NCBI GenBank assembly: GCA_964016885.1
Contig: OZ024741.1
Coordinates: 29,016,001 to 29,080,000, forward strand
Direction of reading: 5' to 3'
Source of the DNA: Eledone cirrhosa
Lineage: Eukaryota
Length of the DNA stretch: 64,000 nt
Position 1 is the stretch's first letter. Each line of letters opens with the position of its first letter. The notes beneath the pieces were generated by a model that had not been told where the DNA came from, searched no databases, and saw only the letters and a list, made by a program, of their open reading frames with translations. Made by a program: the position numbers and the translations under genes. This document shows, piece after piece, positions 1,188 to 62,430 of this stretch.

Positions 1188-1832
<645 letters not shown>

Positions 1833-1868
1833 TTCTCTATCCACTGTTTTGTATAGAACCTTACTTCC

Positions 1869-1964
<96 letters not shown>

Positions 1965-27563: not shown

Positions 27564-27863
27564 TATAAAGTAAAGCATGTCCAGAGAATTATTTGATAAT
27601 ATATATACATCATTTCTTCTCCCAATTAGCATAATTAACCACACAACAAATTAATTAGACCAGGCTTTAAGATTAAAAGGCACCTATGAAGAAACAGTAA
27701 ATAAATACACGACAGCGACGTCTTCGCGGCCAACCGCTATAGAATATTTACCCAACATTTCAACAGCACGTGGAAATTAATTAAATATACGGTCAATCAT
27801 ACACAATTAGGTATAAAATGAAAGTTAGAAATGCTTATATACATACCAGGATTAAATCACTAA

Positions 27864-27942
27864 ATCCCGACCCATGGGTTTCGCTCTCATTTTGAGATAT
27901 CCTATTCAGGATAAATCTCGAGTTTAGAGCTCTTCAGGGGAC
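27864..27942 (-). ncRNA. Type I hammerhead ribozyme with intact core, in a (TA)n-flanked segment at ~27562-27993
   Basis: Minus strand: GTCCC-CTGAAGA-GCTCT..GAGAT.TATCCT(gaat)AGGATA-TCTC..AGAGC-GAAA-CCCATGGG-TC^GGGAT. All three helices pair and helix III is palindromic. Confidence 0.85.
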
Positions 27943-41905: not shown

Positions 41906-42271
41906 ATTATATTGTCTGGAAGAAAGGATGTAAAGATGAATATTGCATCCTCATTGATCAAAATCTGCTGAAACAAAACTGACATTTTGCTAAATAATTA
42001 CAATAAATAAATAAATATATATATATATATAACGGCGATGAATTAGTTTTGCGAGGTTTTTGATATGAAATCGTGTGTCGAAACAGATATTGTTATACTT
42101 GGAGAGGGTCATATTGTTGTAATAATATTGCCAGAAATAATAATAGAACACACTAACTGTTTGGTTGGTTTTCGCTTCTGTAACTTTTGTATCTCCATAG
42201 TTAATTCATTTGGCAATCAATGTTGATCATTGACTGACCAACGGCAAAAATACAGATATAAATACATATAT

Positions 42272-42325
42272 ATAGTCTAACAAAGGTCTTTCGTTGCACC
42301 TCTGCAACATCATCAGTGGTACTAT
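42272..42325 (-). ncRNA. Minimal type I hammerhead motif in the left Penelope arm
   Basis: Exact reverse complement of 43603-43656. Confidence 0.65.
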
Positions 42326-42613
42326 TATGTTTCCTCCTGTTGTATTGTATGCCTACGCCATTTTTATTTTATCTGTTTACTTATTTATTTATTTTTGTCT
42401 TCTTCTCTGCGCATGCGTTTGCGTGTGTGTATAGTGTTTGGTGTGCGGGTTCGCGTTTGGGTGACTGTGTTTTGGTTATTGTATTCTATCTTAGTTTATT
42501 AGTGTGTGTTTATATGTGTGTGTTGTTATTGTGCTTGTGTATATATTTATTTATTTATTTATTTATATTTCTCTTAAGTCAGTATTGTTTGTTTGGGTGT
42601 TGTGGTTATTCCA

Positions 42614-43195
42614 TTAATTTTTTCTGTTTAGCTTTGGCCTTCTAAGTTCTATTTCGCTTGCTTCTCTGATTTGCCTACCTGCTGGGTCATTTCTATGTTT
42701 AGATATTATTTTAATTTCTATGTTGTCTATGTTACCGTCATGTTGTTGTCTGGCATGTTCATATAGTACTGAACCGTTCTTTCTTCCTTTTAGTTCGCCC
42801 CCGGGTTGGTCTATCCTTTCACCTATGCTACGAGCTGTCTCGCCTATGTATGTTGTTGTCATGTTTCTGAAAGTACCCCCTGTACATCTTATGCTATAGA
42901 CTACATTTCTAGTTTTACAGTTTATCTGGGGGTTTACTATACATATAACACATTTCTTATTAGTACAGTGGGTTTTCTTAAAAGGGTATTTTTTGTTGAT
43001 CAGGGACTTTATAGTAGTTCCTGGCTTTTCTACCACTTTAATCTTTAAGTGGGTCTTTCTCAGGGCCTTTCTACATTGGTTAGCTAATTTCCCTCCAGGG
43101 GTAGCGTCCACGAACATGACACTCTGGTATTTCTGGTTGTCGTACCATGAGGTGGCTTTCCCTATCTTATGTTTAGTACTATCTAAGCTATTCCA
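42614..43195 (-). pseudogene. Penelope C-terminal GIY-YIG endonuclease domain
   Basis: CTNKKCVIC..CKTRNVVYSIRC..YIGETARSIGERI..SVLYEH..RQIREASEI..PKLN. Confidence 0.9.
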
Positions 43196-43602
43196 TGACG
43201 GTAACGTAGACAACATAGAAATTAAAATAATATCTAAACATAGAAATGACCCAGCAGGTAGGCAAACCAGAGAAGCAAGCGAAATAGAGCTTAGAAGGCC
43301 AAAGCTAAACAGAAAAAATTAATGGAATAACAACAACACCCAAACAAACAATACTGACTTAAGAGAAGTATAAATAAATAAATAAATAAATATATACACA
43401 AGCATAATAACAACAAACACATATAAATACACACTAATAAACTAAGATAGAATACAATAACCAAAACACAGTCACCCAAACGCGAACACACACACCAAAC
43501 ACTATACACACACGCAAACGCATGCGCAGAGAAGAAGACAAAAAAAAAAAAAATAAACAGCTAAAAATGGCGTAGACATACAATCCAACAGGAGGAAACA
43601 TA

Positions 43603-43656
43603 ATAGTACCACTGATGATGTTGCAGAGGTGCAACGAAAGACCTTTGTTAGACTAT
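43603..43656 (+). ncRNA. Minimal type I hammerhead motif in the right Penelope arm
   Basis: ATAGTACCA-CTGATGA-T-GTTGCA(gagg)TGCAAC-GAAA-GACC-TT^TGTTAGACTAT. Helix II is perfect, helices I and III are imperfect. Confidence 0.65.
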
Positions 43657-45421
43657 ATATATGTATTTATATCTGTATTTTTGCCGTTGGTCAGTTAGTG
43701 ATAAACATTGATTGCCGAATGAATTAACTATGGAGATACAAAAGATAGAGAAGCGAAAACCAACCAAACAGTTAGTGTGTTCTATTATTATTTCTGGCAA
43801 CAATATTATTACAACAATATGACCCTCCCCAAGTATAACAATATATATATATATCCAATTGAATAAAACTTTATCTAACGTTTAAAATAGTAATATAATA
43901 TCATTTTCTTCTTTCCATAATTTCCTCTAAGAAAGAGAGGGTATATGACAATTGTAACCATTTATCAGACTGTTGAGAATGATACGATTGAGGGAAAACT
44001 TAAAACAGACCTGCCAACCTATAAAAACCAAAACGGGGACTACAATGAAAAAAATGCTCCAAAACGGGGAGAAATTAGGTAAAGTGGGGAGATTTTACAT
44101 AATGAGAGCTATACCCATTTTCACAATAGAAGACATCTCTCATCGTCCGACGGGGAGAGTTGAAAGATCTGCTTAAAAAAAAAATGAAGAACATCTGTGT
44201 GTTGAGACCAAAACATCTGGAATTCTTGATCCGCAAATCACTTCCCAACTAACTTCGATTAGGATGATGATGGCCATTCACTAGAACGAGATGCAGCAAG
44301 TGGATTTAGTTATTTCAGTGCATATTCAATATTTTCAGGCAACACATTTACCAGTTTGATTGCAAGGACCACCATTACCATGACACGTTATGCATTCCTT
44401 TGTTTATTAAAACTTCAAATGATTCATGAAAAAATAATTACTATAATATATTTCATACGCTTCACTAAAGATATCCAGTAGAAGGACAACGGGGAAGCGT
44501 TGGCAGAATATAGTTTTACATACAAATGTCTATAGTAACACGAAAATTTGTTATCTGTAATATATAAAAATATTATGTCAACTATATTTTACAGAAGTTA
44601 TACAATGATGGACATATTTTGTTATATGTTATATATAAAAATATTGTCAACTATATTTTACAGAAGTTATATAATGGTGGAAATATGAAAAGAAAAATAT
44701 AAAAACAAAATTAAGTAATGAAAAGAAGGGGGAAGGGTAAAGAAGGACATATTTGGCTGTATAGGAAAGTAGAGAAAAGTACTATAAATGGCAGAAATGT
44801 GAAGAAAAGGAGAGAAAGAGCAAGGAATGTTAGGCAACGGGAGAAACAGAGGAGAAGGGGATAGTGTGACAGATTCTATCCTTAGGGCGTGGCGGTGTTT
44901 CAGCTGCGCCCCGCAGACAGAACTACAAAGGCATTTGCACAGAAAATGGCTTGCGACACCCTCTGCAACAGCCACCCAACCTTGCGGAAAACAAAATGAA
45001 AATATTGTTTTATATCCATTACTGCTGCAATAACTTACCTACATCTCTACTGCAGATTTCTCCATGTTTCTTGTAGCTAGACACACCATGATAAATACTA
45101 TTAAGTTTCAAGCATATCCCTGGTAATCTTACAGATTAATGGGATCTGTAAAGCATGTAATAGAACAACGATGATGGATGAGGCATAAACACAAGAAACA
45201 GCATAAACGTAGAACGAGCTTTCTCTACTTCAAAATACATATCTAGCTGTATTGCTCATCTGCCTCTCTCCTCTTTATAAATAAATGTATTCAATCACTT
45301 ACCACACATACACACATACACATACATACGTACATACGTACACACACACACACTCAGATATGTGTATATATATATATCTATGCATCATATATATACTTAT
45401 GCAAATATATAAGTATGCAAG

Positions 45422-50493: not shown

Positions 50494-50498
<5 letters not shown>

Positions 50499-50675
50499 AT
50501 AATAATAAATGTGAAGACTAAAATCCAAAGAGAGCTCAATAAGGATAAATATATATAAAATATATAAGAACCCTAGAGCTAATATTTCTTAAAATAACAG
50601 ATTAAAGTTTAAGCAAAGAATTGCTGCCCGTTAAGGGTGAAATCAGCTATTCTTTGCTTAAACTTTAATCTGTTA

Positions 50676-50681
<6 letters not shown>
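50494..50681. mobile_element. (TA)n-flanked element with a terminal fold-back; unfolded homologue at ~61271-61440
   Basis: Arms 50589-50621 and 50649-50681. Shares TAGTAATAATAATAAAT..GACTAAAATCCAAAGAG with the 61.3 kb copy. Confidence 0.75.
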
Positions 50682-50707
<26 letters not shown>

Positions 50708-51122
50708 CATTTTTTTGTCCTACTAGCATTTTAAGGGGTCCGCCGAGCTGCGGATTATTGAGTCGGGTAAGATCGATACAGATCAAACCTTGAGCTGATC
50801 AGTGGCGAAACGCGCGTCACCTACCAATAAATGTATTGAAGGAGTAACCAATCGTCCTCGTTATCTTTTCAATATAATACACTCTGTCTAGCTCTACACC
50901 TCGACACAGAAGTGAACCTAAACATCGAGTGCTCACCCGGGTGAACCTACAGTAACTCCAAGTTACACTCCCTATATATATATTTAAAGGTTAAACAAGG
51001 TTCAATGAATAAATCAAAGAATGAGTTTTACAATAGATTGGAAGCACTCAACAGATTGGTTTTCCGGAGTTATTAATATTAATTCAAAATATTAACAAAA
51101 TAGATATTCTTGTGATCAAGTA

Positions 51123-51189
51123 TATTTTATTATACATATTTCAGAGGTACTGAGTTAACTTCAACAGTACGTCTTCATCAGATAAAATA
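51123..51189 (-). ncRNA. Type I hammerhead ribozyme motif (left arm)
   Basis: TATTTTAT-CTGATGA-AGA.GTACTG..CAGTAC.TCT-GAAA-TATGTA-TA^ATAAAATA, with a perfect 8-bp helix I. Confidence 0.8.
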
Positions 51190-51270
51190 AGATGATGCAT
51201 GACATACTACTACTACTACCATGACTGAATCTTAACCATCTACCATGTCAGTGTATGTCATGCATCATCT

Positions 51271-51337
51271 TATTTTGTCTGATGAGGACGTACTGTTGAA
51301 GTTAACTCAGTACCTCTGAAATATGTATAATAAAATA
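51271..51337 (+). ncRNA. Type I hammerhead ribozyme motif (right arm)
   Basis: TATTTTGT-CTGATGA-GGA.GTACTG..CAGTAC.TCT-GAAA-TATGTA-TA^ATAAAATA. The two differences from the left arm give G-U wobbles. Confidence 0.78.
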
Positions 51338-51380
51338 TACTTGATCACAAGAATATCTATTTTGTTAATATTTTGAATTA

Positions 51381-51452
<72 letters not shown>

Positions 51453-51680
51453 GGCGGACTACCAAATTTTATTCATAGTGCATTGGTCAAATTATAGTTA
51501 TAGGGCTATAGCAAAGCTCACTTATCCAACGTCCTAGCCAGTGGGACCAAAGTCGAATCTACGAGGTTACGAAGTGAATTCCCCAACCATGCAGCTCTAC
51601 GTGCCCTTATATTGTAGAAAAAAAATGTATATTATTTGTCATTATTGTTTGTTATACAGGAAACAACGGAATATGGCATT

Positions 51681-51870
51681 TGGATTGGCAGTATCAGTGG
51701 AGGGTCGGACGCCAAGATTTCCAGCACAGAGTTATGTCCTTTTATGATCTGAGTTCAAATCCCGCCGAGGTTAACTTTGCGAGGTTAACTCCTTACGGAG
51801 TAGATAAAATAAAGTATCAGTAATACACTGGGATAATTACTGGCCTTGTGCCAAAAGTAGAAACAATTAT
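51681..51870 (+). mobile_element. SINE family A
   Basis: Matches the family sequence, with a small internal duplication. Confidence 0.85.
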
Positions 51871-52020
51871 ATTAAGTCCAGGTGAGGGTTCGATAGGGTA
51901 TGAATGATAGAGGCCTAACCATGACTGGGAACATGACTGTTCATGAAAATGTCAAAGGACATGTATGTATGTATGTATGTATGTATGTATGTATGTATGT
52001 ATGTATGTATGTATGTATGT

Positions 52021-52431
52021 AGTCCTGCAGGATGTCCAAAGTCACCCTCCTCACCAAGAAATCTGGGTAGGGTTGCCAGTTTAGTTGCCAACGACCCGAA
52101 CATGGTATCCAATGATGTTGACTTCTTCTTTTTGGTAAATATCATCTTGATTAAGAGAGTGGGACTGGCTTTGTGCAGTGCCTTTTCTCACTATAAAAGC
52201 TTCTCGGCACAGGCATTGTTTTATAACTGGAGATCTCTCTGCACTTGCCGTCACATGGTACCATGGGCCCAGCACTATGTGTCAATAATTGTCACAAGTG
52301 TAGTGTTTGTACCAGAGTTTTCAAGTCGCTGGCTGGACTAAAAAGTCACACTCGTTCAGCGCATCGGTAGGGGTTCTCCTACATGGATATAAAGTAGTGG
52401 GCGTACTCGAAAACGAGTTGGCAGCCACCAT
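52021..52431 (-). mobile_element. Repeat family C copy in (ATGT)n
   Basis: Homologous to the 24.6-25.2 kb and 45.6-45.9 kb copies. Confidence 0.85.
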
Positions 52432-52736
52432 GTATGTATGTATGCATGTATGCATGTATGCATGTATACATGTATGTATGTATGAATATTCTTCTGGTTT
52501 TATAATTTCACAAATATTTTCCCAATAGAGAGAGAGAGTCTGTTTCTAACATAGACACAAGACTCTCTCATTGGAATTTACACAACATCAACTAGGTAGA
52601 TATGTATGGATGTCTGCATGCATGTGTAGGTATGGATGTTATTGTATGTGTGCATGTGCATACGCTTTGTATCTGTACATGTGTACATGCAGTTATTAGA
52701 TGCAATGTACGTATGTGTGTATGTATGTATGTATGC

Positions 52737-52776
<40 letters not shown>

Positions 52777-52777
52777 C

Positions 52778-52885
52778 AACCAGTAAGACCCCGACGGCTG
52801 AGCTCAAGCCGTTTCGACGGCTAATTCTGGACTCAGAATTAGCCGTCGAAACGGCTTGAGCTCAGCCGTCGGGGTCTTACTGGTT
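52778..52885. repeat. Perfect 52-bp-stem hairpin made of a mirrored hammerhead 3' half
   Basis: 52778-52829 is the exact reverse complement of 52834-52885 (loop GACT). The arm reads ..AGCCGTC-GAAA-CGGCT(tgagctc)AGCCG-TC-GGGGTC. Confidence 0.85.
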
Positions 52886-52965
52886 CCTATTACCCACTCT
52901 ACTACCCCAAGTATTGAGTACTTTGGTGCGTTATGGTCCACCTGGTTCCTTACCACATTTCCTTC

Positions 52966-53001
<36 letters not shown>

Positions 53002-53253
53002 TGTGTGTGTATTTATATATATTTATATATATGTATTTGCTCTACAAGATTCTTGAGGTGAAATCGTGTGTTGAAACCGATATTGATATATTTGGGGAGG
53101 CAATACTGGGAAAATGACCATCCACACACACACACACATATGTCCCTTGTGGGTCATTGGATAGCGTATTAGACTAGGACACTAGTGGCCACGTGTTCGA
53201 ATACTGTCAACCTCAGCACGCTTCGTTTTATATATATATACATATATATATAC

Positions 53254-53284
<31 letters not shown>

Positions 53285-53317
53285 CATACACACACACACA
53301 TATATATATATATATTT

Positions 53318-53362
<45 letters not shown>

Positions 53363-53429
53363 TAGGTAATTTCAAAGGAAAAGCAAGGGAAAAAAGAGTG
53401 CTCTATGTATAGAACAGAGCTATTTAATT

Positions 53430-53580
53430 AGAAAGTGAACAACAAAATATAACTACTCCGTTACCAAAGGTTTCTGGATCACATCTCTGTCTGATGAACG
53501 ATCCAGACGTATATTATTATCCTCTGTGATCCAGAAACCTTTGGTAATGGAGTAGTTATATTTTGTGTTGTTCACTTTCT
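53430..53580 (+). ncRNA. Fold-back (~54-bp arms) overlapping a type I hammerhead motif at 53485-53552
   Basis: CTCTGT-CTGATGA-..GATCCAGA..TCTGTGATC..-GAAA-CC(ttt)GG-TA^ATGGAG. Arms 53430-53483 and 53525-53580, with (TA)n on the right. Confidence 0.65.
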
Positions 53581-53631
53581 TATTATATATATATATATAT
53601 ATGGGCGTGTTTATAGTTACATATACACTCG

Positions 53632-61273: not shown

Positions 61274-62430
61274 GTAATAATAATAAATTTGGAGACTAAA
61301 ATCCAAAGAGGGCTCGATAAGGATAAATATATATCAAATATATAAGAACCATGGAGCAAATATTTATTAAAATAACAGATTAAAGTTTAAGCAAAGAATC
61401 TCTGCTTTCACCCTTAACGGGATCTTCTGAAACTAAAAAAATCAATCTGTGAACGCAGAAGTAAATATTCGAAAAACGTTGCAACCGGAGGAAGACAGGA
61501 AGACGATACTTTGTGTTCGTGGAAACGTTCCCTGGCAAAGAACCGAAAAAAACGAAGATTATACGTCATTATGTGGAACGGTGAGATCAATTACGCGCAA
61601 AGACAAAACCACGTAAATGGTATAACTAAAGTCGTAGACTAATATTCTATTAGGTGGTTCGTGGAGACGTTCTCTGGCAATGAGCAGAAAAAACGAAGAT
61701 AATACGTCATTATGTGGAGCGTGGAGGTCGATAATATAAAGTACCAGTAATGTACTGGGTAATTGCTGGCCTTGTGCCAAATGTAGAAACAATTATGTGG
61801 AGCGATGAGAACAATTACACGCAAAGACAAAACCACGTTTATGGTATAACTGAAGTCGTAGACTAAAATTCTATTTAGGAAACCGAATCATTCTCGGCTT
61901 CAGAGTTAAGAATAATGTAAATAAATTACAGAGGTAATTGAAATCAACAAAAATTAAATATATACATGCACGCATCCATATACGTACATACACATGCATC
62001 TGCGAAAACACCCGCCATGGGGTATGCAAAATCAAGCACGCACACAAAAAAACACGCACGCACATACAGAACCTACGCAACGCCGGTACTCGCACACATA
62101 CGAACGTATACACCAAATGCACATAAACAATATATAAAAAAAATATAGTTCAAGAGTAAACAATCGTAAAGAGAGAGATGGAGTTAGGAGAGGAGATAGA
62201 AGAGGAGAAGAGAGATTGGTGAATAAGTTAGAAGCCAAAGCATAAAGGCATGTGCTCAATATGCAATGTGCAGTGGAAGGTAGCTAGGTGGCTGGGTTCA
62301 TGCAGTGGTTAGGTGCACAGAGCTGGAAATATTCATTAGTTAAGCAAAACAAGACCATAAATTTCACAAGGAAGACATTATTAAAAGATTGTCAACATAG
62401 TTTTAGTTTAATGTAAGGTATGTAGATAAA

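What the first reader, a model, noticed from the sequence alone, without database searches (positions are those of the whole stretch)
50589..53580. Cluster of tiny (TA)n-embedded fold-back elements built around hammerhead ribozymes
Seen: four hairpin elements with no evident sequence similarity lie within 3 kb (50589-50681, 51076-51384, 52778-52885, 53430-53580). Each has a complete or partial CTGANGA..GAAA..TH hammerhead reading outward toward (TA)n. The fold-back at 1285-1832 and the Penelope remnant at 42031-43844 have the same geometry. Established: Penelope-like elements carry minimal type I hammerheads in their pLTRs and often have an inverted 5' segment. Inference: these are either extreme truncation products of several PLE families or a non-autonomous retrozyme-like class, with arms from ~650 bp down to ~35 bp. 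If transcribed, they could form hairpin dsRNA with self-cleaving ends.
Basis: partly seen in the sequence, partly recalled or inferred. Interest (0 to 1): 0.75.

Follow-up and report, generated by a model that had tools for sequence, protein, structure and literature searches.

The report
Penelope hairpin stubs record RNA ends
These four hairpins are real, back-to-back copies of the short end piece of Penelope-type jumping genes (two tied to the element's protein gene, two likely); thousands of copies stop at one base, often with an extra G, and some stop at the predicted ribozyme cut, so they are likely dead-end copies that record where the element's RNA starts and cuts itself.

Summary
The four hairpins are real, but each also has a 63-94 nt tail on one side, and only E2 holds a complete hammerhead. 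They belong to four dispersed families. E3 traces to a full-length Hydra-type Penelope-like element (PLE), E2 to a related endonuclease frame; E1 and E4 were not traced to a frame. In E3, 80% of 27,950 arms stop within about 30 nt of one A that follows a TATA-like box. A non-parental G precedes it 5,420 times, an A 890 times. The window's junction recurs 955 times, but in many subfamilies and with the tail on either arm (16 vs 13), so it forms afresh. About 290 loci end at or next to the predicted ribozyme cut. Best reading: both nicked strands of a (TA)n target prime copying at two internal RNA sites, the copies run off the capped or cut 5' end and join head to head. The layout is known; I found no paper on the cap and cut footprints. 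The scan noted both before, on this and other genomes. No RNA data were available. The cluster itself is unremarkable.

The parts
50497..50588 (-). E1 tail (sequence between the two inferred RT start sites), one side only
   Evidence: shared by many copies, ends in (TA)n
50589..50626 (-). E1 left arm, 38 bp
50627..50681 (+). E1 right arm: helix II, GAAA, helix III of a non-canonical hammerhead; core absent here (long copies read CAGAAGA)
50982..51075 (-). E2 tail, one side only
51076..51207 (-). E2 left arm with complete type I hammerhead (core starts 51181, predicted cut after 51131)
51215..51384 (+). E2 right arm; begins at the family's pile-up base (ACTACC, inferred transcription start); complete hammerhead 51271-51337, predicted cut after 51329
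52776..52833 (-). E3 tail-less arm; begins exactly at the pile-up A (52833), preceded by G (complement of 52834); 3' half of hammerhead only
   Evidence: sequence
52834..52889 (+). E3 tailed arm, begins 4 nt downstream of the pile-up A; GAAA, helix III, GTC cut triplet, 3' strand of helix I
52890..52967 (+). E3 tail; in the full-length copy L178 it runs on into the coding frame
53362..53424 (-). E4 tail, one side only, next to (GT)n
53425..53483 (-). E4 left arm, 3' half of hammerhead
53481..53583 (+). E4 right arm; starts 3-4 nt downstream of the family's pile-up A; CTGATGA at 53491, predicted cut after 53546, mismatched base of helix II

Best explanation
The four hairpins are likely dead-on-arrival insertions of four Penelope-like retrotransposon families, likely made when both nicked strands of a (TA)n target prime reverse transcription at two neighbouring internal sites near the front of the element's RNA, and the two short copies run off the RNA's 5' end and are joined head to head. 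Shown: family membership, link to coding frames for E3 and E2, one tail per insertion, pile-up of inner ends at one A per family, excess G before it, a second pile-up at the predicted ribozyme cut in E3. Inferred: that this A is the capped transcription start, that the G is the copied cap, that the second pile-up reflects cleavage in the cell, and that both arms usually come from one RNA or one source element. In E3 the inferred start lies inside loop II of a U3-A8 hammerhead, so the RNA's front copy would lack the catalytic core; this explains the missing core in the window.
For: Parent: L178 has repeat-tail-786 open codons-repeat, with DKT, RWR, CxCX5C, CxxC, CxH and a C-terminal VIY..YIG; its 3' repeat lacks the tail. 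Long E2 fold-backs hold a related endonuclease frame (3 of 4 fetched). Pile-up: E3 5,488 of 27,950 arms reach 30 nt upstream; E4 39 of 100 listed arms stop at +1, 38 run on (by eye); E2 about 17 of 100 stop at -2..+1, none at -3..-9, about 50 run on (by eye). TATA-like boxes lie about 30 nt upstream in E2 and E3. Extra G: E3 5,420 G vs 890 A, but only 7 hits among long arms; E4 20 G of 39 (p 6e-6 against 0.19); 5 abutting pairs in 100 rows have G and +1 on both arms. Two priming events: exactly one tail in 29 of 30 position-ordered E3 copies, on either arm 16:13, E2 18 of 18, E4 11 of 12; in 14 insertions the partner is a piece of tail only, which the tail-less arm cannot template. E3 arms share subfamily type in 18 of 21 pairs, 17% expected. 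Cut footprint: 563 arms; in 86 of 100 listed rows both arms end at TC/GGGG, about 30 loci with inserted A/T rather than G. In vitro a PLE protein nicks and extends both strands and starts at two internal sites bounding the tail (PMC11167929).
Against: No RNA 5' end was seen. Some of the G's can be the partner arm's own base (the window's junction is such a case), and extra C's also occur at a few cut-site junctions, so G is not proof of a cap. E3 ends spread from about -4 to +5; E4 has a second cluster at -11..-13 (12 of 100). E1's pile-up is weak (4 of 42 arms at -1..0, many at +13..+16) and its arms differ at polymorphic sites in 4 of 8 pairs. E1 and E4 were not linked to a coding frame. No compensatory change was seen in E3 or E2 helices and folding z-scores are not significant for E2-E4. 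Cut footprints are inconclusive for E1, E2 (5 loci) and E4 (10 loci); 16 of the E3 loci are perfect palindromes that CG microhomology can also give. PMC11167929 found no RNA ends at the PAc cut site. Several counts are by eye from the first 100 listed rows.
Confidence: 0.78

Rival explanations
1. One cDNA folds back and copies itself, or self-priming occurs on an antisense RNA (proposed for PLE palindromes in PMC3846280).
For: Arms match in subfamily (18 of 21); several recurrent junctions fit 1-4 bp local hairpins. It may make a minority of junctions.
Against: 14 tail-only partners; both arms ending at +1 with G and a 0-6 nt gap; either arm can hold the +1 end; left arms from other families in some selected loci.
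Confidence: 0.1
2. PLE stubs made by two priming events, but the inner boundary is an RT stall site or a splice acceptor, not a capped start.
For: E3's boundary follows a pyrimidine run and YAG; an intron ends at the hammerhead in D. virilis Penelope (PMC4209133); E1 ends cluster at the base of helix II.
Against: E3 copies keep the AG and show no fixed upstream exon; the boundary lies in an AT-rich loop; TATA-like box at about -30 and excess G in two families; A/T rather than G at the cut site.
Confidence: 0.08
3. An independently mobile, non-autonomous hairpin or retrozyme class that is copied as a unit.
For: 955 copies share the window's E3 junction; the E1 junction recurs in several top hits.
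Against: Same junction in 17 haplotypes among 30 copies, tail on either arm 16:13; it is 3.4% of arms; 25 of 28 position-ordered tailed copies are fold-backs with varied junctions; no tandem units; E1 and E3 stubs lack a core.
Confidence: 0.04

Closest known systems
EN+ PLE insertion unit: 5'-truncated copy, adjacent inverted copy, one-sided tail (PMC8557442 passages; PMC3846280 passages)
   Same: Head-to-head repeat ends, tail on one end, microsatellite target, TATA and initiator-like motifs in the repeat
   Different: Extreme shortness, tails of 63-94 nt rather than 30-40, inner ends piled at one base with extra G
Hydra clade, incl. Hydra-1_Obim (PMC8557442 section 11 and supplement hits)
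   Same: C-terminal endonuclease, DKT, CxCX5C, CxxC, CxH, (TA)n target; protein co-linear by eye
   Different: Different family; RWR for RWK; 3.1-kb unit; U3-A8 core instead of the canonical core; no tree built
PAc of Anolis (PMC11167929, parts 1-2 of 4)
   Same: Two internal RT start sites bounding the tail, near the start of the frame; both strands extended
   Different: That paper does not discuss inverted insertions or run-off at the transcription start and saw no RNA ends at the cut site
Minimal and U3-A8 hammerheads of PLEs (PMC4209133, parts 1-2 of 4)
   Same: U3-A8 core; opposite-strand hammerhead pairs 100-700 bp apart already noted
   Different: E3 has a full helix III and a 37-39 nt loop II holding the inferred promoter and start
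Animal non-LTR retrozymes (10.64898/2026.07.22.740005, part 1 of 5)
   Same: Non-coding, type I hammerhead, PLE-related
   Different: Retrozymes are head-to-tail repeats with a full ribozyme per unit; these are inverted stubs of coding elements
L1 twin priming and retroviral strong-stop DNA (recalled, no call)
   Same: Two primers on one insertion; short run-off cDNA to a capped 5' end
   Different: Here two fixed internal sites give an inverted duplication, and the primer is target DNA

Membership tests
EN+ Penelope-like element | Single frame with RT and GIY-YIG endonuclease between terminal repeats | tested here: met
   E3: L178; 2,054 relatives, top hit carries PF01541. Pfam scan of the frame itself gave no hit. 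E2: endonuclease part only.
EN+ Penelope-like element | Same, for E1 and E4 | tested here: inconclusive
   Shared upstream sequence followed for about 330 nt (E1) and up to 1.57 kb (E4) without a frame
EN+ Penelope-like element | Inverted truncated copy with one-sided tail | tested here: met
   all four families
Hydra clade | DKT, RWK, CxCX5C, CxxC, CxH, C-terminal EN | tested here: met
   Read from L178 translation; RWR in place of RWK
Hydra clade | Insertion into (TA)n | tested here: met
Hydra clade | Canonical hammerhead core | tested here: not met
   E3 parents read TTGANAA; met for E2
Hydra clade | Absence of CCHH motif; placement in RT tree | not tested
   Only a by-eye comparison with supplement alignment
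Type I hammerhead | Core plus three helices | tested here: inconclusive
   Met for E2 and for E3 parents (lowest-energy fold gives the three-way junction); partial for E4; U4A core and U at 17 for E1
Type I hammerhead | Compensatory covariation | tested here: not met
   Copies too alike; none seen in tables
Type I hammerhead | Self-cleavage | not testable with these tools
   Indirect footprint in E3 only
Non-LTR retrozyme | Tandem units each with a complete hammerhead | tested here: not met
   Inverted single stubs
Independently mobile hairpin element | One junction, one orientation, one lineage | tested here: not met

The most novel reading that the evidence does not exclude
In the E3 family the capped start inside hammerhead loop II and the ribozyme cut in the downstream repeat define a 41-nt terminal redundancy. 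The short cDNA primed at the tail would normally jump through it to the RNA's 3' end, as retroviral strong-stop DNA does, giving long tailed and partial-tandem copies; the tiny hairpins would be failed jumps. The split ribozyme would be completed only in trans or by read-through.
Probability: 0.25. Interest if true: 0.75.

Novelty: new member of a known kind. Interest (0 to 1): 0.5.

Why it matters
How PLEs make their inverted ends and tails, and whether their hammerheads cut in cells, are stated as open in the papers read (PMC8557442, PMC11167929, PMC4209133). Tens of thousands of stubs give base-exact predictions for the RNA start, both RT start sites and the cut site. E3 offers an internal control: G at the inferred capped end, A/T at the inferred cut end. 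The stubs are also a large repeat class (roughly 0.6 per 10 kb in the sample) that could be mistaken for MITEs or retrozymes.

Tried and rejected
Rfam scan: no hammerhead among listed matches. Tail-only DNA search returned no candidates. A search for a canonical CTGANGA upstream of E3 gave 49 mixed junctions and no parent; the parent has a U3-A8 core. My early idea that E3's junction is the native helix II was wrong: native loop II is 37-39 nt. First E3 hits all shared one junction because the query included it; position-ordered samples replaced them. alone excluded the window-type junction; one search added the complement. Of 25 'tail-only' calls, 11 proved to be short or diverged fold-backs and were dropped. 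E1 fold-backs were counted from both strands and are not used. Cap footprint in long arms, sought as a sign of strand transfer: 7 hits at -1 vs 9 at -2, no support. No RNA holder listed; contigs only, so no start or expression could be read. DNA contigs of run X3 show opposite-strand joints at the E3 boundary but may be the same sample. Pfam and PDB searches of the E3 frame were blank. PMC5785218 on hammerhead variants was not held, so E1's U4A core is unjudged.

Full report
Observation. The four hairpins are present and are unlike each other. Only E2 has a strict hammerhead, in both arms. E4 has a core but a mismatched base of helix II. E1 and E3 have only the 3' half. The cluster is not exceptional: 23 such hairpins in 400 kb of evenly spaced stretches, and 1 of 40 stretches has three within 3 kb.

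Families. All four are dispersed in the 3.0-Gb genome. Exact patterns give 27,950 arms for E3, 981 for E2 and 448 for E4 (lower bounds). L178 is a full-length E3 element: repeat, tail, 786 open codons, 3' untranslated part, second repeat without tail. Its motifs match the Hydra description (PMC8557442 section 11), and it is co-linear by eye with Hydra-1_Obim but is another family. Three of four long E2 fold-backs hold a related endonuclease frame. E1 and E4 continue into longer copies but were not traced to a frame; their PLE origin rests on the shared anatomy. Earlier scan notes call this an octopus genome; I did not test that.

Outer ends. One arm ends at an inner site, the other carries the tail. 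In 30 position-ordered copies of the window's E3 junction, 29 have exactly one tail, 16 on one arm and 13 on the other. E2 gives 18 of 18 and E4 11 of 12. In 14 insertions the partner is only a piece of tail and the other arm has none (11 further calls dropped). A cDNA folding on itself cannot produce that. In vitro, a PLE protein extends both target strands and starts at two internal sites that bound the tail (PMC11167929, parts 1-2 of 4). Two priming events are thus inferred. E3 arms share subfamily type in 18 of 21 pairs against 17% by chance, pointing to one RNA or one source; E1 arms differ in 4 of 8 pairs.

Inner ends. They pile up at one A per family. In E3 only 5,488 of 27,950 arms reach 30 nt upstream (by eye 33 of 128 in the first 26 Mb of C1). 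In E4, 39 of 100 listed arms stop at +1, 12 at -11..-13, 11 elsewhere, 38 run on (by eye). In E2 about 17 of 100 stop at -2..+1 and about 50 run on (by eye). E1 is weak. TATA-like boxes lie about 30 nt upstream in E2 and E3; the TATA and initiator consensus is recalled, and PMC3846280 (passages) notes such motifs in PLE repeats. A non-parental G precedes the A in 5,420 E3 arms against 890 for A, in 7 long-arm hits, and in 20 of 39 E4 arms. An extra G as the mark of a copied cap is recalled knowledge. Some G's may be partner bases, but the last 15 nt of the partner offer G and A at 4:3, not 6:1. Because the tail sits at the start of the coding frame and the 3' repeat of L178 lacks it, copying from the tail would hit the RNA's 5' end after 136 nt (58 nt from the inner site). 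This predicts the stub sizes.

Hammerhead. E3 parents read TTGANAA, the U3-A8 core described in PMC4209133 (parts 1-2 of 4), and fold into the three-way junction (z not significant). The pile-up A lies inside loop II, so stubs lack the core. A second, smaller pile-up sits at the predicted cut: 563 arms, about 290 loci; in 86 of 100 listed rows both arms end there; about 30 loci have inserted A/T, 16 are perfect palindromes that microhomology could also give. The wider pattern shows the longer arm mostly ending at that base (by eye). This likely records cleavage in cells, in trans or on read-through RNA. E1, E2 and E4 are inconclusive. No covariation was seen.

Independent mobility. The window's E3 junction recurs 955 times, 3.4% of arms, but in 17 haplotypes among 30 copies and in both orientations. 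It forms repeatedly, likely by a 1-2 bp match of the cap-derived C. A mobile hairpin class is not supported.

Novelty. The insertion layout, opposite-strand hammerhead pairs and the U3-A8 core are in print. Searches for Penelope with strong-stop, template jump, self-priming and cap, twin priming, or extra G listed no paper that, from titles, abstracts and term counts, reports run-off at the start or cut footprints; most subscription papers are not held, and I read none of the listings. PMC2377424 and PMC6765202 (passages) place the start in the upstream repeat. The scan's own unreviewed notes report the one-tail rule, cap run-off and cut footprints on this and other genomes; they are not independent support. 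How long tailed copies arise remains open: multimeric RNA, circle or strand jump; my one test of the jump was blank.

Noticed in passing
window 61275-61421 (-): Second E1-family arm with tail that runs on into longer element sequence
   Followed up: partly
window 27860-27937 (-): Strict type I hammerhead with long helix II, family not traced
   Followed up: no
window 50720-50880: Repeat end with GAAA, palindromic CGCGCG and TC but no CTGANGA; relatives in L081 and L003
   Followed up: partly
window 42031-43844: Fold-back of another, very abundant PLE family with open frames up to 1,218 codons elsewhere; canonical core near 43612; about 58-nt tail on the left
   Followed up: partly
window 53040-53120: Short piece resembling, by eye, the tail and tip of the 42031-43844 family
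   Followed up: no
window 1285-1880: Fold-back with a one-sided extension of about 45 nt ending in (TA)n; relatives in L029 and L125; no strict hammerhead
   Followed up: partly
L046, L119, L126, L127, L134, L136, L145: E3 arm joined head to head with an arm of a different hammerhead-bearing family (mostly pattern-selected loci)
   Followed up: no
E3 parents: Three copies read CTGAGAA, a mismatched C3-A8 core
   Followed up: no
E3 rows: Some junctions carry long non-templated A/T runs at the pile-up base
   Followed up: no
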